64,000 nt of DNA. It comes from Acidobacteriota bacterium. GTDB taxonomy: Bacteria > Acidobacteriota > UBA890 > WLXD01. The position numbers and the translations under genes were made by a program. Positions 12,007-32,997 of the stretch are shown piece after piece. The notes beneath the pieces are model-generated. The model made no database searches and was not told the DNA's origin. It worked only from the letters and a program-made list of their open reading frames with translations. The number at the start of each line of letters is the position of its first letter. Position 1 is the stretch's first letter. The stretch is taken from positions 288,001 through 352,000 of the forward strand of contig CBDBHB010000008.1 of NCBI GenBank assembly GCA_965205505.1, read 5' to 3'.

Positions 12007-15000
12007 CTACCAGTCGAACGAACGCGTGACCTTGAGGGTGAGCGAGCGGTCGTGGCGTCCGAAGCGGAGCCCATCGTAGGCGCCCGCCTGACGGTAGACG
12101 AGATAGATATCGTCGCCGATACGGTAGATGTAGCGCAGCCGGGCGAACACCGAGAGCCCGTTTGAAACGTTGCCGTACTGCACCAGCCCGTCGGTGAGCC
12201 AGCGATCCGAAAAGCTGTAGCTGGCACGCGCGTTGAGCACGTTGCTCGTGAAGCTGCCACCCGGCAGGTCGATCTTGTTGTAGCTGAAGGTGGGGGCGAT
12301 GAGCAGCCTCTCGCTGAGGCGAAACGTCAGCCCGGGCGACACCGTGACAATCGTACCGTCGTAGAACTCCCCGATATTTGCGTCGCCGCTCACGCTGATC
12401 CAGCGACCGCCAAAGGTGAAATAGAAAAGGTACAGGGTGTCGAATGTGTACTCGCCCGGCGCAATCGTCACGTCGGGGTGGATCTGGAAGGGAAAGTCGA
12501 GCCGCTCGAACGTGTTCGAGTAATAGGCGCCTATGCCGTCCCCCGACTCGGTGTTGAGGAAGCCGCCGTACCACGACTCGCGGCTGACGAGGTCGCCCCT
12601 GGTGTCGTGGAAGGTCGTGTAGTTGATATCGAAGTTCACCGACCGCAGCCAGGAGATATCGGGCCGTGGATTCCACGCGCCGCGGAAGGCTCGCTGCACG
12701 ACGTCGTCGCGCAGGACGAAGCCCAGATCGCTGCGGAAGTCGGGGTCGACGCGGATGACGTCGAAGCTGGCGCGCCACAGATCGCTCTGCCAGCCGACGC
12801 CGAACTGACCGGCGAACTTACCTTCCTCGACATCGTCGTCGCTAGCCCGGGCGCCGAAAGCGGAGATGTTGAGGTTGTCGAAGAAGGTAAAGCTGGCGTC
12901 GGCGCCGACAACCGTGTTGGTGGCCCCGTCCGGACCTTCGACGTTGGTTACCAGCGCACCCACGCTCGACCGGGCCAGCACGTCCTGACGCCAGCGCAAT
13001 GCCGTGAACCCCTGTCCGGTGCCAAACCCGGAGTCGTCCGTACGGACGTGGAGGAAGCCAACGCTGCCGCCGCCGATCTTGCCGGTCATCTTAGTGCCGA
13101 AGTCGATCGGGATCGGGACGCCCGAGGGCGACAGCCCGATGTTGCGCGAGTGGAAAAGCCGCAGCAACGGCGCGCCGAAGCCACCTCCACCGCTCGGCCC
13201 GAAACTGAAGTTGTTGGCGCCCTCGAGGAAGAAGTCGCGCTTCTCCGGGAAGAATAGTGAGAACCGCGTCAGGTTGACGCGCTGGTCGTCAAGCTCGACC
13301 TCGGCGAAATCGGTGTTGTAGGTCAGGTCAGCGGTCAAGTTCGAGGTGAGCTGAATCTTGAGATCGTCGATGCCGAACTGCTCGTCGACGTCGTTCGTAC
13401 GGCCGGGATCCTCGAAGAGCGAGGTAGCTGTGCCAAGGAAGTACGGCCGCAGCCGGAACCGCTGGGTCACCGAGAGATTCTGGAAGCCGCGCAGGTCGCC
13501 GGCCTGCGACACGGCGATGAAACGGAAGTCGCGCCGGTAATTGCTCCAGGCAACCTGCTCGTTCTTGCGGCGGATCTGGCGCTCGAAATCGACGCCCCAA
13601 TCGGCCAGGCCGGTGGAGAAGCGCAAGATCCTGAGAGGAATCACCAGCTCCGCCTCCCAGCCGCGTGAGGTGACTTGCGCGGCCGCCTCCCAAGCCTCGT
13701 CCCATTCGGAGTTGATCTGACTTTCGTTGCGGATGGTGGCGTCATAGCGAGCACCCAGCGGATTGACCGTGAACAGGAAGGCGCTGCGTCCGTCGTGGAA
13801 GGTATCCAGCACGACGCTGAACGTGTCATCCGAGCCGCCGCCACCTCCACCGCCGCCGAAAAACCCTCCGCCGCCGCCAAGCGCGTCGCGTCGCAGCTCA
13901 CTGGCAAGAATACCGCTCGGGTTCGTGTCGTAGGCGATCAGCCCGACGTAAAGGTTCTGGTCGTCGTACAGAATGCGCACCTCGGTGCGCTCGGACGCCG
14001 GCTGTCCTTCCCGCGGCTCGCGTTGCAGGAAGTCGGTGGCGACGTCGGCCAGGGCCCAACTGGCGTCGTCGACGATGCCGTCCATCACCGGAGCCTCAAC
14101 GGTACGTGTCACGGTCAGGTCGGGCGCCACACCGGGTGCTCGCGCCGATCGGGGTCGCGCCACTCCGAACGCCATCTCAGGAGCGCTGGGTGTGGGAATG
14201 CCGGTGTCTCCCGGGGCAGTCGAAAGCCTGGGAACGACGGCCGCCAAACTCCTTGGTCCCGTCGGGCGCCTGATGGAGTCGCTGGGAATGCTCGGCTGTA
14301 CTAGGAGGTACCCGGGACGGGGCGGCCCGACCGGCGGGTCGCTCGCAACGAACGGAGCTGGTGCCAGCGGCGGCACACGACCGGGATCCATGACCGGAGC
14401 ACCGGCGACCCGAACCGGAGTGTTCAGCGCATTCGTCACCACCATACGAACCGGGATGTATCTCCTCGGTGCCCGCGCAACCACGCTCAGAGGCGCTCGA
14501 CGGCCGCCGCCAGCCCCGGTCCCGGTCGGCCGCACCCTCGACGAACTGGCACGCGTGCTCGGTGCCACCATGCGGACCGGAATCGCACGCCGCCCGGCCA
14601 CCCGCTGCGTCGCGGGGGCCTCGGTCTTGGCCGAGTCGTCCGTGGCCAGCTCAAGCTTGGCGGATTCTGGCCTGGCCCGTTTTGGCCGCCCGGGTTCCCC
14701 CTTGGCAGATGCAGCTCGGGCGGACTGAGCCTGGCGCTTGCCTCCTCCGGAACCAGAGCCAGACGGGGTCGAAGCCTGCAGACGCGGACCCGCTCCGACC
14801 ACCAGCGCAATGCAGACGACAAGAACGAGTCTGGGCTTGTGCACGACGAGAGATTTCCGGGACCGTGTGGCGGCGACGAGGCTCTGCGTCACTACACTAC
14901 ATCGCGGGTGTGAGGGCACACACGACCTCATCTCGAGCGAAGAGCGAGCGGACGGCCAGATGCGGCCCCACTTGACCGCTGGGCTGCGGAGGCGGAATGT

Positions 15001-15171
15001 GCGAAGGGTCCGTAGTGTCCTCCGTCGTGCTTTCCGTCGGGTATGGTGAAGGCGGTCACTGGCTGCGTCGCGGTGGCACTCTGGTCGCTGCGACCAGGCA
15101 CCACTTACCCGGAGACGAAGGACCCTGACTTTTATCTCGAGCGAGGCATCGACGTCGATCGGAAGCTCCAC
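12007..15171 (-). CDS. CBM9-like + DUF5916 beta-barrel-type protein with long Pro/Arg/Ala-rich N-terminus (start uncertain, probably near 14900)
   Basis: PVMDGIVDDASW, TEVRILYD, LDTFHD, NPLG, YNTDFAEVELD, LFFPEKRDFFLEG motifs. Confidence 0.82.
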   Translation of the reverse strand: MELPIDVDASLEIKVRVLRLRVSGAWSQRPECHRDAASDRLHHTRRKARRRTLRTLRTFRLRSPAVKWGRIWPSARSSLEMRSCVPSHPRCSVVTQSLVAATRSRKSLVVHKPRLVLVVCIALVVGAGPRLQASTPSGSGSGGGKRQAQSARAASAKGEPGRPKRARPESAKLELATDDSAKTEAPATQRVAGRRAIPVRMVAPSTRASSSRVRPTGTGAGGGRRAPLSVVARAPRRYIPVRMVVTNALNTPVRVAGAPVMDPGRVPPLAPAPFVASDPPVGPPRPGYLLVQPSIPSDSIRRPTGPRSLAAVVPRLSTAPGDTGIPTPSAPEMAFGVARPRSARAPGVAPDLTVTRTVEAPVMDGIVDDASWALADVATDFLQREPREGQPASERTEVRILYDDQNLYVGLIAYDTNPSGILASELRRDALGGGGGFFGGGGGGGGSDDTFSVVLDTFHDGRSAFLFTVNPLGARYDATIRNESQINSEWDEAWEAAAQVTSRGWEAELVIPLRILRFSTGLADWGVDFERQIRRKNEQVAWSNYRRDFRFIAVSQAGDLRGFQNLSVTQRFRLRPYFLGTATSLFEDPGRTNDVDEQFGIDDLKIQLTSNLTADLTYNTDFAEVELDDQRVNLTRFSLFFPEKRDFFLEGANNFSFGPSGGGGFGAPLLRLFHSRNIGLSPSGVPIPIDFGTKMTGKIGGGSVGFLHVRTDDSGFGTGQGFTALRWRQDVLARSSVGALVTNVEGPDGATNTVVGADASFTFFDNLNISAFGARASDDDVEEGKFAGQFGVGWQSDLWRASFDVIRVDPDFRSDLGFVLRDDVVQRAFRGAWNPRPDISWLRSVNFDINYTTFHDTRGDLVSRESWYGGFLNTESGDGIGAYYSNTFERLDFPFQIHPDVTIAPGEYTFDTLYLFYFTFGGRWISVSGDANIGEFYDGTIVTVSPGLTFRLSERLLIAPTFSYNKIDLPGGSFTSNVLNARASYSFSDRWLTDGLVQYGNVSNGLSVFARLRYIYRIGDDIYLVYRQAGAYDGLRFGRHDRSLTLKVTRSFDW

Positions 15172-15451
15172 GAGCTACTGGTGAGGAACGGGCTCGACAA
15201 TCCTGAGCGACGAGGGGCTCGACCATGTGGCCGGGTACGCTCAGGGCGTCAGCCTGTTCCTTACCTTCGTTCTCGGCGATCCGACGCTCGTCGATAGGGC
15301 TCACGACCGGGGCCTCGCCGTTCACGCCTGGCAGGCATTCGAGGCGTTTCCACCGAGCGATTTCATTGATGAAGCGGCCTACATTCGGCACCTTCTGAAC
15401 GACATCGGGCTCGACGCCCTCTTCGTTCACGATCCCGGACTCTGTCCATGA
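15100..15451 (+). pseudogene. Glycerophosphodiester phosphodiesterase remnant
   Basis: YPETKDPDFY..GIDVDRKL in one frame and LVDRAHDRGLAVHAW...GLDALFVHDP in another; N-terminal catalytic part is absent. Confidence 0.6.
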
Positions 15452-15551: not shown

Positions 15552-15875
15552 ATGGGCCAAGCTTCTTGGGAGCGCGGGATCCGAGAATCCAAGCGCCGTG
15601 CTGCTAGCTGTTTTCTCGTACTTCTACTGAGCCTCGTGGTTCTGTCTGTACCCGCGACGTCCTCGCTGGCGGGCACAGAATTGGCGCCGACGATGATTGC
15701 CAACGAGCAAAGCAGCTTGTTCTGGGTCGGGCTCGCTTACCTGACGGAGGACCGACGGGCGAGCGCCATGGTGGGCGTCGTGGGTGCGGTCCAGACGTCG
15801 ATCAACTCGGCGATCATCGGAGCCGTCTTCGGCGGCCCGGCGGGTTTCGCCGCGGGCGTGGGTTACGGGCTCTAG
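15552..15875 (+). CDS. Putative head-to-tail cyclized bacteriocin/RiPP precursor
   Basis: GGAGGT RBS; 107 aa; basic n-region plus hydrophobic h-region ending SLA, then a Gly/Ala-rich hydrophobic C-terminal core; first gene of a SpoIIM-Yip1-ABC operon. Confidence 0.7.
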   Translation: MGQASWERGIRESKRRAASCFLVLLLSLVVLSVPATSSLAGTELAPTMIANEQSSLFWVGLAYLTEDRRASAMVGVVGAVQTSINSAIIGAVFGGPAGFAAGVGYGL

Positions 15876-15904
15876 CAGGCCGTGGTGAAAGTGTGGTGGG
15901 TCTG
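15872..15904 (+). repeat. Isolated terminal repeat of the MITE-like family
   Basis: CTAGCAGGCCGTGGTGAAAGTGTGGTGGGTCTG, identical to 19380-19412; its TAG is the precursor stop codon. Confidence 0.9.
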
Positions 15905-15963
15905 TAACAGATCCGACTCAGGGGCGGAGCTCATCACCTGTGAGCCCGCCCCGAGGAGATTCC

Positions 15964-16560
15964 ATGGGGTGGCGTGGAACTCTAACTACAACAGCGAGAT
16001 CGTTGACCATGCCTGCAGTGACTGCGGCGCTACTCTGGGGAGCGTCAGCGACCGTCGGGGCAGGTCTCCTCATTGACTCGATCCCGATGGCTCAGAGCTC
16101 CGATTCAGCCACCGTGCTCGGCTTAGAGCGAGCCACCGTGTCGTTCCGGGTGATCCTGAAGCGCAACTTGTGGGTCTTCGGGATCAATATCGCAGGTGTG
16201 GCCAGTTTGGGAATCAGCACCCTTGGCTCTGTCGTTGCGAACGGGCTTCAAACAGGCATGGCGCTTGCCCAGGCGCACCGAGAAAATGTCGGCCTTCGGT
16301 CACTCGTCGCAGTGACTCTTCCCCATAGCCTCGAGCTTGTCGCGCTGTGGCTTTCAGCAGCTGTCGGGTTCCTCGGCCCTCGCCTGACGATGTCGTTTGT
16401 GAACAACAGCGAGCTGCCAACCTCACCCACGCCACAAACTCTTGCCCTGGTCGTGCTCGCACTGGCGGGGCTGATAGTCACGGCGGCCGCCTTGGAGGTA
16501 GGCGTGTCGTTGCCCGTAGCGGAGCTTCTTCGAAGCGCGGCGTCCGGGATCGGCTGGTGA
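15964..16560 (+). CDS. Stage II sporulation protein M (SpoIIM/DUF95) family membrane protein
   Basis: ILKRNLWV..G..SLG....NGLQTG and TLPHSLEL.ALWLSAAVG, C-terminal AAALE; GAGGAG RBS before ATG 15964. Confidence 0.82.
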   Translation: MGWRGTLTTTARSLTMPAVTAALLWGASATVGAGLLIDSIPMAQSSDSATVLGLERATVSFRVILKRNLWVFGINIAGVASLGISTLGSVVANGLQTGMALAQAHRENVGLRSLVAVTLPHSLELVALWLSAAVGFLGPRLTMSFVNNSELPTSPTPQTLALVVLALAGLIVTAAALEVGVSLPVAELLRSAASGIGW

Positions 16561-17114
16561 CTTTCGACGACGGGACCGACAGATTGCTATCCACACTCCT
16601 CGTTGTTGGCACAGCGCTCGTACAAGGTCAGATCTCAGCGACCGTCGCCAGCAGTGTCACCACTGTCGTGATTCCGGCCTGGGCGGCGCTCTTCGCGGGC
16701 TTCAACGGACTGATGACATGCGCTCTGGCGATCGTTTTCTGGCTACTCATAACCACCATCGCTCACATCATCTGCCTGGTCATGGATGGCCGCGGCGCTT
16801 ACGGTCGTTTCGTAGTATGCGCTGGCTACGGTTATCTCCCCTACTTCCTGACGACACTGATCACACTCGTGGCGGTGATCGACATCTCACCTCAGATCTC
16901 TGCGGCCCTAGAGTCGGGTGAGATGATCGGGGCTCCGTTACGCGCGCGGCTACGTTGGTACGGAGCACTCAACAACGCGGCGCAGGTGCTGTTGTTCGGC
17001 TGGGTGATAGCCGCGGCGCGGCGCGTCCACGGCGTCACGATGATTACGGGCGTGGTGAGCGTGCTGGTACCTGTCGGGGCTGTCCTTCTGGCCCGTGGCG
17101 TGCTCATCGCATGA
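16557..17114 (+). CDS. Yip1-like membrane protein
   Basis: About 5 TM; HIICLVMDGRGAYGRF...GYGYLP and RRVHGV pattern typical of Yip1; GTGA and ATGA overlaps with both neighbours. Confidence 0.72.
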   Translation: MTFDDGTDRLLSTLLVVGTALVQGQISATVASSVTTVVIPAWAALFAGFNGLMTCALAIVFWLLITTIAHIICLVMDGRGAYGRFVVCAGYGYLPYFLTTLITLVAVIDISPQISAALESGEMIGAPLRARLRWYGALNNAAQVLLFGWVIAAARRVHGVTMITGVVSVLVPVGAVLLARGVLIA

Positions 17115-17824
17115 GCGTCATCGCTCGGGCAGACACGACGCTTCGCTGTACGGACCTATCTCGGACCTATTGCAGGCGAGAGGTACTGCGCATCGACGAT
17201 CTGGTTATCAAGCCTGGCGAACGGGTCGCCGTCGTTGGTCCGAACGGCGCCGGGAAGACCACCTGGCTGCGGATACTCCTCGATCTGGTCCGACCAACCA
17301 GCGGAACAACCACCTTTGGTCTTCTCTCGCCGGAGCAGGCACGGCGCCAAGGCCTGGTAAGCGGGTACCTGGGCGAGGATTTTCTGATCCCCTATCTGAC
17401 GGCGGAGGAGTACCTGGCGTTCGTCGGCCGGTCCTTCGGATTGAGGACGGATGAGATTTCCACCGCCAGACAAGAGCTCGACGACCTCATCGGCTTCGTC
17501 GGGTCGACGAAGCTGATCCGCCAGCTCTCCACCGGTATGGGCCAGAAAATCGGCATCGCTGGTGCGCTGTTGGCTAACTCGCCGATCCTGATACTCGACG
17601 AGCCGTTTGCCAACCTTGATCCGCCATCTTGCTTGTCACTCATACGCCAGCTCAAGACACGCCACGCATCAGCGCACGCCACGCACATCGTGTCGAGCCA
17701 CAACCTCGAGTACGTTGCCGACATCGCAGACCGCGTCCTCCTGTTGGAGGAAGGTCGCATTACCTGGGACGAGACCGAGCACACCCAAGCCAGCTTGCGC
17801 CGGCACTTCATCCGGAACGCCTAG
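17111..17824 (+). CDS. ABC transporter ATP-binding protein
   Basis: Walker A GPNGAGKT, signature LSTGM, Walker B ILILDEP, H-loop SSH. Confidence 0.95.
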   Translation: MSVIARADTTLRCTDLSRTYCRREVLRIDDLVIKPGERVAVVGPNGAGKTTWLRILLDLVRPTSGTTTFGLLSPEQARRQGLVSGYLGEDFLIPYLTAEEYLAFVGRSFGLRTDEISTARQELDDLIGFVGSTKLIRQLSTGMGQKIGIAGALLANSPILILDEPFANLDPPSCLSLIRQLKTRHASAHATHIVSSHNLEYVADIADRVLLLEEGRITWDETEHTQASLRRHFIRNA

Positions 17825-17870
17825 CAGGCCGTGGTGAAAGGGTGGTGGGTCTGGCGACAGCGTCTTGCGA
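17821..17870 (+). repeat. Terminal fragment of the MITE-like family
   Basis: CTAGCAGGCCGTGGTGAAAGGGTGGTGGGTCTGGCGACAGCGTCTTGCGA matches the reverse complement of the right end at 19609-19658; TAG is the ATPase stop. Confidence 0.88.
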
Positions 17871-19357
17871 GGCGATGGTTGATCGAATCGCTCCTGCGGC
17901 ACGAGGCTACTCGTATTCGCCGAGGCGTCGGTTTCAACGCAATACGCCTCGTCATCCGGATCGGCCTGGCCGCGCTGCTGCTTCCACTCGTCGGGATGTG
18001 CTTCGCACTGGGGCTGGTGTGGGTTAAGGCGACATCTGAGCTTGGAATCGACGGAATCGCGTTTCTTTCCAAGTACGCCCTACCGTTCTTGACGATCTTG
18101 ACAACCGTTCGTGTGGCCTTCGACCGCGGCGTCGCACTCAACCCGCTTCCATATGTGGCATTGGCCCATTCGCGCCGCAGTTTGACGGGATTCGTGATCG
18201 TCCGATCACTGTTCAACAGGTACGCGTTGATTGTCTGTCTGTTCGCCGGCGGTTTGCTGATTGCGCCCCAGCTGGCAACGGGGAGCAGTCGGCAGGTGCC
18301 ACCGAGCTGGTTCATTGCGCTGGCCACAATCTGGATCGTTGGCGATCTCGCTGTGCACACACTGAGAACATGGCTCTTTCGGAGGTCCGTCGGCTACGTG
18401 ATTCTTACGGGGCTGGGTCTCGCGGCGGCATCGCTGGGCTGGCTATCGAATCTCTCGAGCGCCTACTTTGCCTGGGCAGAGACATCTCCAACGGCGGCAA
18501 TCTCAACGGGGCTCGCGGCCCTGGGCGCAGCTGTTTGGGCGGCGTACCTGAGCCTTGCAGAGTCGACCTATCTGGATACCGTAGCCATGACCGACGGTCG
18601 GCGGCCGTGGCCCTTCGCGGTTCATTTGTTGAGATCGGCCAACCCCGCAACTCGCTCCGCAGCGCTCTTGCTCTGCCTGCTTGCCCGGGTTCCCAAGGCC
18701 CGGACCACCATACTGGGCGGCGCCGTGATGACCGGAGCCGCTGTCTTCATCTATTGGCTCAACCCCGGCTACGGCGACAACAAGCTCATCGGCATGGGCG
18801 TCCTCGCAGGGTTCTACAGCAGCGGCAGCTTGGCCTTTTTCGTCGGGCAGCTGGGATTGAGCTGGCAGAGCAGCTTCTATGACCTTCTGGCGTACGCCGA
18901 GCGCGACGAGCGCGACGTCATCCGCGGGCAAATCGTGAGCCTTCGATCACTCGTGCTCATGCAGTACGCGCTCGCAGCGCTCCTGTTCACCGCAATCATC
19001 GACGGTGGACTCTTCGTCGTGACCAGCTTCGCGATCTTCAATATTGGCTGTGTGCCCCCGGTTTGTGTGTGGATCTCCCTCAGCAACTCTCGGCGAATCG
19101 ACCCCTACGAATCTTCTTTCTTCTCCCAGGAAGGAAGCTCCAGCGCCGTTGAATCGTCGCTGGGGACCGCTGTTCTCGTAGCGATTCCGCTTCTGCTGAG
19201 CTTCGCGGCGATCTCTTCGGAGATCGGGGGCCTCGTTGCCATCGCCGCCGCAGGCGCCGCCGGTATCGCCATAGGCCCCGCGATTGAACGGCGCCTCGCA
19301 TCGCTCTACAGGTCGCGGCGACACGTCCTCGCCCACCAGCTGAGACAGCGTTCCTGA
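17831..19357 (+). CDS. Polytopic ABC permease, DUF5687-like
   Basis: About 12 TM in two halves; NPLPYVAL..SR, GQLGLSWQSSFY, FNIG, RRID..ESSFFSQEG resemble DUF5687; real start may be TTG 17879 because 17831 lies in the repeat. Confidence 0.72.
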   Translation: MVKGWWVWRQRLARRWLIESLLRHEATRIRRGVGFNAIRLVIRIGLAALLLPLVGMCFALGLVWVKATSELGIDGIAFLSKYALPFLTILTTVRVAFDRGVALNPLPYVALAHSRRSLTGFVIVRSLFNRYALIVCLFAGGLLIAPQLATGSSRQVPPSWFIALATIWIVGDLAVHTLRTWLFRRSVGYVILTGLGLAAASLGWLSNLSSAYFAWAETSPTAAISTGLAALGAAVWAAYLSLAESTYLDTVAMTDGRRPWPFAVHLLRSANPATRSAALLLCLLARVPKARTTILGGAVMTGAAVFIYWLNPGYGDNKLIGMGVLAGFYSSGSLAFFVGQLGLSWQSSFYDLLAYAERDERDVIRGQIVSLRSLVLMQYALAALLFTAIIDGGLFVVTSFAIFNIGCVPPVCVWISLSNSRRIDPYESSFFSQEGSSSAVESSLGTAVLVAIPLLLSFAAISSEIGGLVAIAAAGAAGIAIGPAIERRLASLYRSRRHVLAHQLRQRS

Positions 19358-19379: not shown

Positions 19380-19658
19380 CTAGCAGGCCGTGGTGAAAGT
19401 GTGGTGGGTCTGGTTACGGCGAGTTGGGGCCAGGTGCAAGGCGGCCTGACACAGGCGATGCCCTAGCCATCGTCGAGGAAGGCCAACGCCGCAAATGGCC
19501 CCAAATCGCCGTAACCCTTCGGGCAACAGGGGGTTGCGCGCGTATGCTGCGTCGTTCCTCGTCAACGATGGGGTTACCATCGTCTCCTCCTCTCTCCTTG
19601 CCTCCACTTCGCAAGTCCCTGTCGCCAGACCCACCACACTTTCACCACGGCCTGCTAG
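19380..19658. mobile_element. 279-bp MITE-like element
   Basis: Perfect 34-bp terminal inverted repeats including CTAG at both ends; nested internal inverted repeats; no transposase; lies between convergent genes. Confidence 0.85.
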
Positions 19659-19663
19659 TGTCC

Positions 19664-21004
19664 TTACTCAGGACGCTTTTCTCGAAGCCGCCTTCGGACG
19701 TCCTCGTAGTAGGGCTCGTTCTTCTGCGCGATGACGATCTGATGCCCATCCGGATCGGAGATGGTGAAGAAGTGCAGCCACGGCCGAATCTCGACCTCGT
19801 TGGGCTCGGGTACGAGGCCGTTCGCCGTCGCTCTCGCGAAGTGCCTCTCGACATCGTCCACCATGAAGTAGTGGCGCACACCGCCTCCGTAAACTGGCTC
19901 GGCGTCGTCCGATGTGGTCAGCGCGAGGCGTCGTCCCGCGCTCAGAAGCTCTGCATACTCGGGAGAATAGGGTCTGTCCCACGACAGCTCGTAGCTGTCT
20001 TCCTGGTAGTCGTAGTAGTACTGATGTTCGAAGCCGAGGCTCTCGTAGAAGGTCGTGCTCTTTCGAACGTCGGTTACGTAGAGGGCAGTGAGGGTCTCTC
20101 CGGTGAAATCGGCGGGGGGCGTTGCGGGCCCGCCGCAACTTGTCAGCAGGGCCGGCAACGCGACCACCTGAAGGAGCGAGAACCGGAGGGCCGATGAAGC
20201 CCCGCTGGCGCCTTGTTGACGAGTCGTGCTAGCCGCCAACGGCGAGTCCGAGGCGCGGGATACGAGCGCGATGGCCAGGCTGATCGGGATCGCTCCCAAG
20301 AGCAGGTTCCATGCCTGCGGCTGTCCGAATAGCAGCCCCCGCGAGCCGAGCTCAGCGATGACGCCGGCGGTCCACATGGTAGCCACGACCAACGGCAGGT
20401 GCGCGGCGCAACGCACGGCGCGATCGGCGCGGACTAGGCGCACAACAAAAACGACGGCCGCCAAGACGGAAAACAGATTGGCGATCAGCAGCACGAGTCC
20501 GCCGATGATCTGCAACGTCGCCTGCGGAACCATGCCTGCGATCGCCGCCACCAGCCAGGCAACGGCCGGCGGCGCATAGAGCGCGACCCGGACAACTCGT
20601 GCCACCGACCCGCCGCTCGGAAAGATCAGCGCAAGGTGCAAGAATGCGGCCTCGGCCAGTGCACTGAATCCCAGGTACACGAAGAGGAGGCTGAGCTCGA
20701 TCCCGGCGTGCGCGGCGCCGATGGTTCCACCCCAGTGGATTCCACCACCCACGCCGTACAGCAGTAGGACGACCGTGAATCGTCCGGGACGCAGCCTCCA
20801 CGCCGCCGCCCCGCACACCAGAAACAGCACTCCCAGCAAGGTGATCGGCAGACGAAGGCTGTCGGGTATGCTGACCAGCGAGGACGGCCACAGCAGTGCC
20901 GTCGCCCGCCAGAGCAAAACGGCGACCGTCGCCAAGACGACCCATCTCCGGCCTTCGTAGCCGGTTTCAACAGCAGAACGACTCATTCCATGGTCCTCAC
21001 TCAT
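19664..21004 (-). CDS. Multi-TM membrane domain fused to a C-terminal VOC/glyoxalase domain
   Basis: About 8 hydrophobic helices, then LLTSC and ALYVTDVRKSTTFYESLGF, YFMVDDV, FTISDPDGH. Confidence 0.75.
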   Translation of the reverse strand: MSEDHGMSRSAVETGYEGRRWVVLATVAVLLWRATALLWPSSLVSIPDSLRLPITLLGVLFLVCGAAAWRLRPGRFTVVLLLYGVGGGIHWGGTIGAAHAGIELSLLFVYLGFSALAEAAFLHLALIFPSGGSVARVVRVALYAPPAVAWLVAAIAGMVPQATLQIIGGLVLLIANLFSVLAAVVFVVRLVRADRAVRCAAHLPLVVATMWTAGVIAELGSRGLLFGQPQAWNLLLGAIPISLAIALVSRASDSPLAASTTRQQGASGASSALRFSLLQVVALPALLTSCGGPATPPADFTGETLTALYVTDVRKSTTFYESLGFEHQYYYDYQEDSYELSWDRPYSPEYAELLSAGRRLALTTSDDAEPVYGGGVRHYFMVDDVERHFARATANGLVPEPNEVEIRPWLHFFTISDPDGHQIVIAQKNEPYYEDVRRRLREKRPE

Positions 21005-32928: not shown

Positions 32929-32997
32929 CAGGCCGCCTTGCATCTGGCCCCAACTCGCCGTAACCAGACCCACCACACTTTCACAGCGGCCTGCTAG
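32925..32997. repeat. 73-bp internally deleted derivative of the MITE-like element
   Basis: Reverse complement of 19380-19448; TAGCAGGCCGC...GCGGCCTGCTAG ends; TAG is the amidohydrolase stop. Confidence 0.85.

What the first reader, a model, noticed from the sequence alone, without database searches (positions are those of the whole stretch)
15552..19357. Candidate head-to-tail cyclized bacteriocin/RiPP operon in an apparently diderm host
Seen: five co-oriented genes, three translationally coupled: small hydrophobic precursor, SpoIIM/DUF95 protein, Yip1-like protein, ABC ATPase, large permease. Codons look less GC-biased than the flanks, and a broken GDPD gene and a MITE bound the block. Known: precursor + DUF95/SpoIIM + ATPase + membrane proteins, often with Yip1, is the signature of circular bacteriocin clusters such as AS-48, circularin A and gassericin A, characterised in Bacillota. 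Inference: a Gram-negative version using a DUF5687-like permease, which would also suggest a function for that DUF. No small cationic immunity gene is visible.
Basis: partly seen in the sequence, partly recalled or inferred. Interest (0 to 1): 0.92.

Follow-up and report, generated by a model that had tools for sequence, protein, structure and literature searches.

The report
SpoIIM-linked secreted peptide operon, Acidobacteriota
A real five-gene operon pairs a new family of small, glycine-rich secreted peptides with the membrane protein that defines circular bacteriocin clusters, so it is a good but unproven candidate for such a peptide in Gram-negative bacteria.

Summary
Five co-oriented genes at 15552-19357 encode a 107-aa peptide, a SpoIIM/DUF95 protein (34 bits, cut-off 26.9), a 185-aa membrane protein that misses the Yip1 cut-off (24-26 bits vs 28.6), an ABC ATPase and a divergent DUF5687 permease (96.8 bits).

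The peptide is a real gene. It defines an uncurated family of 20 small proteins: a signal-like N-terminus, a variable linker, and a 48-55-aa hydrophobic Gly/Ala-rich core that always ends at the protein's last residue. In three unrelated lineages (this Acidobacteriota genus and two Bacteroidota genomes) a short SpoIIM and a 181-185-aa membrane protein follow the peptide directly.

Two annotated circular-bacteriocin clusters on Bacillota plasmids have the same five kinds of part. Their SpoIIMs match this family's at hhalign probability 97.3%.

The peptide matches no known precursor family. The two Bacteroidota loci have no ABC genes next to the module. DUF5687 with its ATPase is a separate, common Bacteroidota module that was recruited here. 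Cyclisation is untested because the structure tools were off.

Verdict: a new variant of a known kind. Circular-bacteriocin-type locus about 0.45; actual cyclisation about 0.3-0.35.

The parts
15227..15451 (+). Remnant (C-terminal 74 aa) of a glycerophosphodiester phosphodiesterase gene; left border of the block
   Evidence: Pfam GDPD 22.8 bits, profile positions 186-243 only. G004 has an intact 338-aa GDPD at the same place, 152 bits.
15552..15875 (+). Precursor-like small protein, 107 aa. It has a signal-like N-terminus (about residues 1-40), a variable linker, and a conserved Gly/Ala-rich hydrophobic core (residues 58-107) that ends ...GYGL-stop.
   Evidence: Four full-length close homologues and one 60-aa truncated gene call of the G001 copy. 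14 distant small proteins found by profile search. No Pfam or NCBIfam family. dN/dS against G004 is 0.25.
15872..15904 (+). Solo copy of the MITE terminal repeat; its CTAG supplies the peptide gene's stop codon
   Evidence: Absent at this junction in G004.
15964..16560 (+). Short SpoIIM/DUF95-family membrane protein. The likely start is ATG 15964, behind GAGGAG. The longest ORF starts at GTG 15940.
   Evidence: PF01944 34 bits, above the 26.9 cut-off. hhalign 97.3% to the SpoIIMs of two annotated circular-bacteriocin clusters. It is the only SpoIIM in the genome.
16557..17114 (+). 185-aa membrane protein with 4-5 hydrophobic segments; Yip1-like but below the cut-off
   Evidence: PF04893 24.2-25.6 bits, below the 28.6 cut-off. 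GTGA overlap with the SpoIIM stop. Crude count of 4 hydrophobic segments.
17111..17824 (+). ABC transporter ATPase, 237 aa
   Evidence: ABC_tran 78 bits. ATGA overlap with the upstream stop. 35-39% identical to ATPases that sit beside DUF5687 in Bacteroidota, against 28-30% to bacteriocin-cluster ATPases.
17821..17870 (+). Second solo copy of the MITE terminal repeat. It gives the ATPase its TAG stop and separates it from the permease start.
   Evidence: Absent in G004, where the two genes overlap.
17831..19357 (+). Divergent DUF5687 permease with about 11 hydrophobic segments. The start is uncertain: GTG 17831 lies inside the repeat, and TTG 17879 corresponds to the G004 start.
   Evidence: PF18940 96.8 bits, profile positions 15-483 of 484..
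19380..19658 (.). Complete 279-bp MITE; right border of the block
   Evidence: 47-nt inverted ends. 35 such pairs at 246-nt spacing in the genome.

Best explanation
The operon makes and handles a small membrane-active peptide by the same logic as circular-bacteriocin clusters of Bacillota, using a new precursor family found so far only in diderm bacteria.

Proposed steps:
1. The 107-aa product is targeted to the inner membrane by its signal-like N-terminus (inferred).
2. The N-terminal 40-57 residues are removed (inferred).
3. The remaining 50-67-aa hydrophobic Gly/Ala-rich core is matured with the help of the short SpoIIM protein and the 185-aa membrane protein. This may include joining its invariant C-terminal end to the new N-terminus (inferred, untested).
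4. The ATPase and DUF5687 permease, a transporter module recruited from elsewhere, expel the peptide or protect the producer (inferred).

Shown: the genes, their families, their coupling, the conservation of the peptide, and the peptide-SpoIIM linkage across phyla. Not shown: cleavage, cyclisation, export and antibacterial activity.
For: 1.

2. The peptide is a conserved gene.
- Four full-length close homologues were found, plus a 60-aa truncated gene call of the G001 copy.
- 14 of the 18 profile hits are small proteins (75-105 aa) that align through to the last profile position.
- All 20 aligned members end at the same column, 16 of them in GL.
- 19 of 20 have a positively charged, then hydrophobic, N-terminus. 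Their cores are 48-55 aa, net charge -3 to +3, 15-30% Gly.

3. In 3 of 3 independent lineages the peptide gene is directly followed by a short SpoIIM and then a 181-185-aa multi-pass membrane protein. The SpoIIMs score 34, 57 and 66 bits.

4. SpoIIM is present only where the cluster is: G000, G001 and G004 among 11 genomes of the taxonomic family. G000 has only this one copy.

5. An HMM of this SpoIIM subfamily scores a circularin-type cluster's SpoIIM at 53.7 bits over its full length. It scores SpoIIM-family proteins of the same phylum at 25.6 and 16.5 bits. hhalign gives 97.3% to two bacteriocin-cluster SpoIIMs.

6. Two annotated clusters show the same parts list.
- C. perfringens plasmid: precursor 67 aa, 188-aa membrane protein, 525-aa membrane protein, SpoIIM 172 aa, ATPase 237 aa.
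- B. thuringiensis pYGD30: precursor 99 aa, Yip1 209 aa, 572-aa membrane protein, ATPase, SpoIIM.
- The B. thuringiensis precursor also begins with a charged, then hydrophobic, signal-like leader.

7. The literature criteria are met: precursor, DUF95 protein and ATP-binding protein; N-terminal extension only; group ii peptides have long leaders, low charge and high hydrophobicity (PMC8534725 and PMC6131525, passages).

8. The distribution is patchy, like an accessory trait.
- 3 of 41 relatives carry the permease.
- The peptide profile hit 2 of 401 and 1 of 301 Bacteroidota genomes. These counts include the seed genomes, and one of the two hits in the first count was weak.
- IS elements flank the Balneolales copy.

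9. All five genes are under purifying selection (dN/dS 0.24-0.47 against G004).
Against: - The peptide matches no circular-bacteriocin precursor family. 0 of 18 members hit PF09221 or PF12173 at E up to 1. There was no NCBIfam hit and no solved circular bacteriocin at E up to 10. hhalign to two real precursors gave 5.3% and 1.6%.
- The conserved core (48-55 aa) is shorter than the cores of the two comparators (61-63 aa by their Pfam matches).
- The two Bacteroidota loci have no ATPase beside the module. Their genomes have no DUF5687. This breaks the 'always an ATP-binding protein' rule.
- In G001 and in a metagenome contig, the ATPase and half the permease are deleted while the peptide and SpoIIM genes remain intact.
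- There is no small cationic immunity gene.
- The Yip1 assignment is below its cut-off. The third protein shows no detectable similarity to its positional counterparts.
- SpoIIM-family proteins also occur outside bacteriocin clusters. 6 of 14 control genomes have them, including archaea.
- The language-model look-alikes that named cyclic bacteriocin clusters scored only 0.76-0.80, a level that chance often reaches.
Confidence: 0.45

Rival explanations
1. The peptide is linear and Sec-exported. Signal peptidase releases a 60-67-aa glycine-zipper peptide that acts on membranes as a linear bacteriocin or toxin. SpoIIM, the 185-aa protein and the ABC/DUF5687 pair only protect the producer or clear the peptide from its membrane. 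Nothing is cyclised.
For: - 19 of 20 members have a classical charged, then hydrophobic, N-terminus, and the window's ends in SLA|G (sequence).
- The modules in L031 and L032 have no dedicated exporter, as expected if Sec does the export.
- There is weak resemblance to Gly-zipper families: 3 of 18 members hit PF13441, best E 0.074.
- The unrelated Chthoniobacteraceae hit that shares the motif is a Gly-zipper protein.
- According to the literature read here, loss of the DUF95 gene in leucocyclicin Q did not stop cyclisation (PMC6131525 and PMC7132975, passages). SpoIIM therefore need not be a cyclase.
Against: - The strict linkage to a bacteriocin-type SpoIIM and the exact, invariant C-terminal end in 20 of 20 members are not required by this model.
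- No Gly-zipper family reaches significance.
Confidence: 0.28
2. It is not an antagonistic peptide. The small protein is a structural or regulatory inner-membrane or envelope component that works with SpoIIM and the 185-aa protein. The ABC/DUF5687 pair is an unrelated transporter that happens to lie in the same operon in this genus.
For: - DUF5687 plus ATPase is an independent module: 46 of 301 Bacteroidota genomes, 24 of 24 loci without a peptide or SpoIIM, and variable flanks.
- The peptide and SpoIIM genes persist after the transporter was lost in G001.
- SpoIIM-family proteins have non-bacteriocin roles in many organisms (controls).
- No immunity gene is present.
Against: - Extreme rarity and patchiness, with IS flanks, fit an accessory competitive trait better than a housekeeping role.
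- In G004 all five genes are tightly coupled, with an ATPase/permease overlap.
- The variable linker followed by an invariant core looks like a processed precursor.
Confidence: 0.2
3. The cluster is a decaying remnant and is no longer functional in this genome.
For: - Two repeat insertions lie at gene junctions, and one displaces the permease start.
- A neighbouring gene is broken.
- A relative carries a large internal deletion.
- No sigma-70-like promoter was found.
Against: - All five reading frames are intact.
- dN/dS is 0.24-0.47.
- The repeats fall between genes and keep the stop codons in place.
Confidence: 0.07

Closest known systems
Head-to-tail cyclised (circular) bacteriocin gene clusters of Bacillota. 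Examples fetched here: the circularin A/uberolysin-type cluster on C. perfringens plasmid NZ_CP102303.1 and the uberolysin/carnocyclin-type cluster on B. thuringiensis pYGD30.
   Same: - The parts list is the same: a small precursor with an N-terminal extension only, a short SpoIIM/DUF95 protein (hhalign 97.3%), a multi-pass membrane protein of about 185-210 aa, a 237-238-aa ABC ATPase, and a 490-570-aa polytopic membrane protein.
- The leader can be long and signal-like.
- The core is hydrophobic and near-neutral, like group ii peptides (PMC6131525).
   Different: - The precursor is unrelated in sequence, and its conserved core is shorter.
- The large membrane protein is a DUF5687 member, with no similarity to the counterparts.
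- The ATPase is closer to DUF5687-linked ATPases.
- There is no small cationic immunity gene.
- The hosts are diderm (Acidobacteriota, Bacteroidota).
- Family members exist with no ABC genes at all.
DUF5687 (PF18940) plus ABC ATPase gene pair of Bacteroidota
   Same: The permease matches the family over its whole length (96.8 bits). As in 24 of 24 Bacteroidota loci, it is adjacent to an ATPase that is 34-40% identical to the window's.
   Different: - Typical members score 300-650 bits; this one is divergent.
- The gene order is reversed: here the ATPase comes first.
- Only here is the pair joined to a peptide/SpoIIM module.
- The family is very rare in the window's own phylum: 3 of 301 genomes over the cut-off, all in one genus.
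Glycine-zipper small membrane and outer-membrane proteins (PF13441, PF13488)
   Same: A signal peptide followed by a Gly-rich hydrophobic segment with GxxxG spacing.
   Different: No member reaches significance (best E 0.074). Those families are not linked to SpoIIM.
Sec-dependent linear class II bacteriocins (recalled from general knowledge, not from a call)
   Same: A small hydrophobic peptide behind a Sec-type signal, with no dedicated exporter needed.
   Different: As far as recalled, those clusters lack SpoIIM. No sequence relation was tested beyond Pfam and NCBIfam.

Membership tests
Circular (head-to-tail cyclised) bacteriocin cluster | SpoIIM/DUF95 membrane protein encoded in the cluster (the class-defining gene) | tested here: met
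   PF01944 34 bits, above the 26.9 cut-off. hhalign 97.3% to the SpoIIMs of two annotated clusters.
Circular (head-to-tail cyclised) bacteriocin cluster | ATP-binding protein, with a membrane partner, in the cluster | tested here: met
   Met in the window and in G004. Not met in the related loci L031 and L032. Deleted in G001 and L037.
Circular (head-to-tail cyclised) bacteriocin cluster | Small precursor with an N-terminal leader (2-48 aa) and no C-terminal extension | tested here: met
   107 aa. All 20 family members end at the same alignment column. The N-terminal part before the conserved core is 21-57 aa. The true cleavage site is unknown.
Circular (head-to-tail cyclised) bacteriocin cluster | Precursor belongs to a known circular-bacteriocin family (PF09221, PF12173, NCBIfam models) | tested here: not met
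   0 of 18 members at E up to 1. No solved-structure relative. hhalign 5.3% and 1.6% to two real precursors.
Circular (head-to-tail cyclised) bacteriocin cluster | Small cationic hydrophobic immunity protein | tested here: not met
   No ORF, and no space for one, between the five genes.
Circular (head-to-tail cyclised) bacteriocin cluster | Peptide bond between the first and last residue of the core | not testable with these tools
   Needs mass spectrometry.
Circular (head-to-tail cyclised) bacteriocin cluster | Compact 4-5-helix fold with the two ends adjacent | not tested
DUF5687 (PF18940) | Full-length match above the curated cut-off | tested here: met
   96.8 bits against a cut-off of 33; profile positions 15-483 of 484.
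Yip1 (PF04893) | Match above the curated cut-off | tested here: not met
   24.2 and 25.6 bits, below 28.6. hhalign to a true Yip1 from a bacteriocin cluster gave 0.1%.
Glycine-zipper families (PF13441, PF13488) | Significant profile match | tested here: not met
   Best E 0.074 among 18 members.
Known anti-phage defence systems (PADLOC) | Match of the specific components | tested here: not met
   Only generic ATPase matches for the ABC protein; 0 families for the other four proteins.

The most novel reading that the evidence does not exclude
A previously unrecognised family of head-to-tail cyclised membrane peptides made by diderm bacteria (Acidobacteriota and Bacteroidota, including an oral Segatella species). 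The leader is a Sec-type signal. The only conserved partners are a short SpoIIM and one small multi-pass membrane protein. If true, the transporter-free Bacteroidota module would be the smallest natural set of genes that can cyclise such a peptide, and would narrow the long-sought cyclase to those two proteins.
Probability: 0.3. Interest if true: 0.85.

Novelty: new variant of a known kind. Interest (0 to 1): 0.62.

Why it matters
Genome-mining studies place circular bacteriocins almost entirely in Bacillota:
- 6,925 predicted precursors in Firmicutes, 2 in Actinobacteria and 1 in Thermotogae (PMC8534725, passages).
- One predicted cluster in a Gram-negative Novosphingobium (PMC5695211, passages).

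The enzyme that closes the ring is still unknown (PMC6131525 and PMC8659200, passages).

A conserved SpoIIM-linked peptide family in two diderm phyla, with versions that lack any ABC transporter, gives a new and simpler system in which to test what SpoIIM does. It may also be a new peptide scaffold.

The work also shows that DUF5687 is the membrane partner of an ABC ATPase (24 of 24 loci). That is a modest step for this family of unknown function.

Tried and rejected
- Structure prediction of the peptide and a peptide-SpoIIM complex test were not available. No fold evidence exists either way.
- The ESM Atlas did not hold the window's peptide. For the homologue P0010 the best hits scored 0.76-0.80. 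Among them were a cluster named 'class IIc cyclic bacteriocin family' (PF12173 on 44% of members) and a PF09221 cluster. Scores this low are often reached by chance, so this is a lead only.
- PF12173 was sought in 301 genomes and hit none, and no control genome rang. That sample turned out to be Bacteroidota rather than Bacillota, so it gave no comparator sequences.
- The first metagenome scan found 0 relatives among 594 pattern matches. The second found one contig, L037, with the same deleted form as G001.
One of these (L034, Chthoniobacteraceae) is a Gly-zipper/DUF2934 protein and was dropped as not a family member.
- Three of the 18 profile hits were left out of the family: P0006 (1012 aa), P0018 (222 aa) and P0020 (163 aa). 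They are not small proteins, and for two of them the match does not reach the profile's C-terminal core. P0020 looks like a fragment of a transporter permease.
- P0005 (60 aa) was left out of the later alignments. It is a truncated gene call of the G001 copy, which reads through all 107 residues.
- Plasmid searches with the peptide P0010 and with the window's own SpoIIM found nothing.
- No Rfam family, no sigma-70-like promoter, and no more terminator-like sites than in shuffles.
- No RNA holder was listed among the sequencing runs. 20 rows from 9 studies hold the stretch or part of it as DNA or as unknown kind.
- A Zn-ribbon small protein like those of L031 and L032 was not found in G000.
- The idea that the module also occurs in Bacillota was rejected. 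The record titled 'Paenibacillus sp.' has 32 SusD matches and no Spo0A, and it is sampled with the Balneolales phylum.
- Supplementary tables of the mining papers were closed. They may list Gram-negative clusters that I could not see.
- 'Not in print' rests on these searches: DUF5687 in 0 papers; 'head-to-tail cyclized' + Acidobacteria + 'biosynthetic gene cluster' in 0 papers; and the listings.

Full report
**What is there.**
The + strand between 15552 and 19357 carries five consecutive ORFs.
- By Pfam they are: a 107-aa protein with no family; a SpoIIM/DUF95 protein (34 bits, cut-off 26.9); a membrane protein with a sub-threshold Yip1 match (24.2 bits, cut-off 28.6; 25.6 bits for the 185-aa form); an ABC ATPase (78 bits); and a DUF5687 protein matched over profile positions 15-483 of 484 (96.8 bits, cut-off 33).
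- The SpoIIM stop overlaps the next start (GTGA, 16557-16560). That gene's stop overlaps the ATPase start (ATGA, 17111-17114).
- On the left lies the C-terminal remnant of a GDPD gene. The same-genus genome G004 has the intact 338-aa gene there (152 bits).
- On the right lies a 279-bp MITE (19380-19658).

- The MITE's 33-nt end sequence occurs 163 times in the 5.98-Mb genome at up to 2 mismatches, against 0 for the reversed control.
- At up to 3 mismatches there are 190 copies: 52 inverted pairs, 35 of them at exactly 246-nt spacing, and 86 solo ends.
- Two solo ends sit inside the operon, at 15872-15904 and 17821-17870. Their CTAG supplies the stop codons of the peptide and ATPase genes.
- G004 lacks both. 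There the ATPase and permease genes overlap.
- The permease start in the window is therefore uncertain: GTG 17831 lies inside the repeat, and TTG 17879 is equivalent to the G004 start.
- All frames are intact. dN/dS against G004 is 0.24-0.47 for the five genes.
- The cluster is only mildly AT-shifted: 61.9% GC against 64.3%, the 8th percentile.

**The small ORF is a gene and defines a family.**
- A word-indexed search found four full-length close homologues of 107 aa (100, 88, 64 and 64% identity). It also found a 60-aa gene call labelled Acidobacteriota.
- The last 50 residues are nearly invariant, while the region before them varies.
- A profile search of 1.84 billion representatives gave 18 hits at E up to 0.001. 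Fourteen are small proteins (75-105 aa) that align through to the final profile position. Three larger proteins were set aside, and one hit was the close homologue.
- With two more members translated from loci, the family has 20 members.
  - All end at the same alignment column, 16 of them in GL.
  - 19 of 20 begin with a positively charged, then hydrophobic, stretch.
  - The conserved core runs from an aromatic residue (W/Y/F-x-G-x-x-Y) to the end. It is 48-55 aa, with net charge -3 to +3, 15-30% Gly and GRAVY 0.7-1.2.
- No Pfam or NCBIfam model describes it. No solved structure is related by sequence.

**The linkage that matters.**
Loci for distant members could be fetched in only two further lineages.
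- In a Balneolales MAG and in a MAG titled Paenibacillus sp., the peptide gene is followed at once by a short SpoIIM (66 and 57 bits) and then a 181-185-aa membrane protein.
- The 'Paenibacillus' genome has 32 SusD matches and no Spo0A, and it is sampled with the Balneolales phylum. It is a Bacteroidota genome with a doubtful title.
- Another member is named from Segatella (Prevotella) salivae.
- A short SpoIIM (P0063) and a peptide of the P0010 cluster (P0036) share the same longest-contig length, 198,051. This is a hint only.
- All hosts that could be placed are therefore diderm.
- The third proteins share size, position and 4-5 hydrophobic segments but no detectable sequence similarity.
- Both Bacteroidota loci also carry a small Zn-ribbon protein with two hydrophobic segments. 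None was found in the window's genome.

**Relation to circular-bacteriocin systems.**
- Typical clusters add an ABC membrane partner and a small cationic immunity protein. Precursors carry only an N-terminal extension of 2-48 residues. Group ii peptides have long leaders, low charge and high hydrophobicity (PMC6131525).
- Yip1 proteins are common in these clusters (PMC8659200).
- The Balneolales SpoIIM, used as a query against 72,556 plasmids, hit only two C. perfringens plasmids. There the SpoIIM lies in an annotated circularin A/uberolysin cluster: precursor 67 aa (PF09221, 44.5 bits), 188-aa and 525-aa membrane proteins, SpoIIM 172 aa, ATPase 237 aa, and a 64-aa protein.
- A B. thuringiensis plasmid cluster has: precursor 99 aa, Yip1 209 aa (68 bits), a 572-aa membrane protein, an ATPase, SpoIIM, and then an S2P protease and a second transporter. 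Its precursor starts with a charged, then hydrophobic, leader.
- The SpoIIM profile of the new family matches both cluster SpoIIMs at hhalign probability 97.3% over 156-166 columns.
- An HMM of the family scores the C. perfringens SpoIIM at 53.7 bits. It scores the longer SpoIIM-family proteins of the window's own phylum at 25.6 and 16.5 bits.
- The parts list and the signature protein therefore agree with the known class.

**What does not agree.**
- The peptide shows no homology to the two real precursors (hhalign 5.3% and 1.6%).
- The large membrane proteins are unrelated.
- The window's ATPase is closer to ATPases that accompany DUF5687 in Bacteroidota (35-39% identity) than to the cluster ATPases (28-30%).
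- DUF5687 is common in Bacteroidota: 46 of 301 genomes over the cut-off.
  - In 24 of 24 loci it is followed directly by an ATPase gene, with variable flanks and no peptide or SpoIIM.
  - Four divergent DUF5687 loci with wider flanks also lack them.
- In the window's phylum, DUF5687 was found over the cut-off in 3 of 301 genomes, all in one genus.
- The two Bacteroidota genomes that carry the peptide module have no DUF5687 and no ATPase beside the module.
- In G001 and a matching metagenome contig, the stretch from mid-third-gene to mid-permease is deleted, while the peptide and SpoIIM genes stay intact.
- The operon is therefore a joint of two modules. Only the peptide/SpoIIM/small-membrane-protein module is the conserved unit.

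**Distribution.**
- The cluster is in 3 of 41 relatives searched: G000, G004, and G001 in its deleted form.
- SpoIIM in the window's taxonomic family occurs only in those three genomes.
- The peptide profile hit 2 of 401 and 1 of 301 Bacteroidota genomes. These counts include the seed genomes, and one of the two hits in the first count was weak.
- IS genes flank the Balneolales copy.
- This is the pattern of a rare accessory trait.

**Reading.**
- Most likely (about 0.45): a circular-bacteriocin-type production locus with a new precursor family adapted to diderm cells.
- I put actual ring closure at about 0.3-0.35, because nothing here tests it.
- The main rival (about 0.28): a linear, Sec-exported glycine-zipper peptide, with the membrane proteins serving as protection.
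- A non-antagonistic envelope role (about 0.2) and decay (about 0.07) remain possible.
The decisive computations and the mass-spectrometry test remain to be done.

Noticed in passing
window 19380-19658; also 15872-15904, 17821-17870, 32965-32997; genome-wide in G000: A 279-bp MITE with 47-nt inverted ends is very abundant in this genome. At up to 3 mismatches there are 190 end copies: 35 pairs at 246-nt spacing and 86 solo ends. The end begins with CTAG, so solo copies can supply stop codons to upstream genes, as happens twice in this operon.
   Followed up: partly
window 12007-15171 (- strand): The DUF5916 protein next to the cluster belongs to a large paralogous expansion. There are 17-23 matches per genome in four same-genus genomes.
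   Followed up: no
L031 (JAMPHR010000003.1) / G302: The record is titled 'MAG: Paenibacillus sp.', but the genome has 32 SusD-family matches and no Spo0A, and it is sampled with the Balneolales phylum. It is a Bacteroidota genome with a doubtful title.
   Followed up: yes
L031 6654-6983 and L032 5560-5850: Both Bacteroidota peptide/SpoIIM modules carry a small protein (109 and 96 aa) with an N-terminal CxxC...CxxC zinc-ribbon motif and two hydrophobic segments. It has no Pfam family. It may be an immunity or regulatory component. None was found in G000.
   Followed up: partly
window 19664-21004 (- strand): This is a polytopic membrane protein with a C-terminal glyoxalase/bleomycin-resistance domain (39 bits). 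The G004 orthologue matches only residues 1-347 and seems to lack that domain.
   Followed up: no
G558:C1:3077944-3085035 (L065): Four tandem DUF5687 paralogues in one Bacteroidota genome, with one ATPase homologue lying between them and a second elsewhere in the locus.
   Followed up: no
L076 4842-5894: The B. thuringiensis circular-bacteriocin cluster carries a site-2 protease family gene directly after SpoIIM. This is a candidate leader peptidase in that system. No counterpart is present in the window.
   Followed up: no
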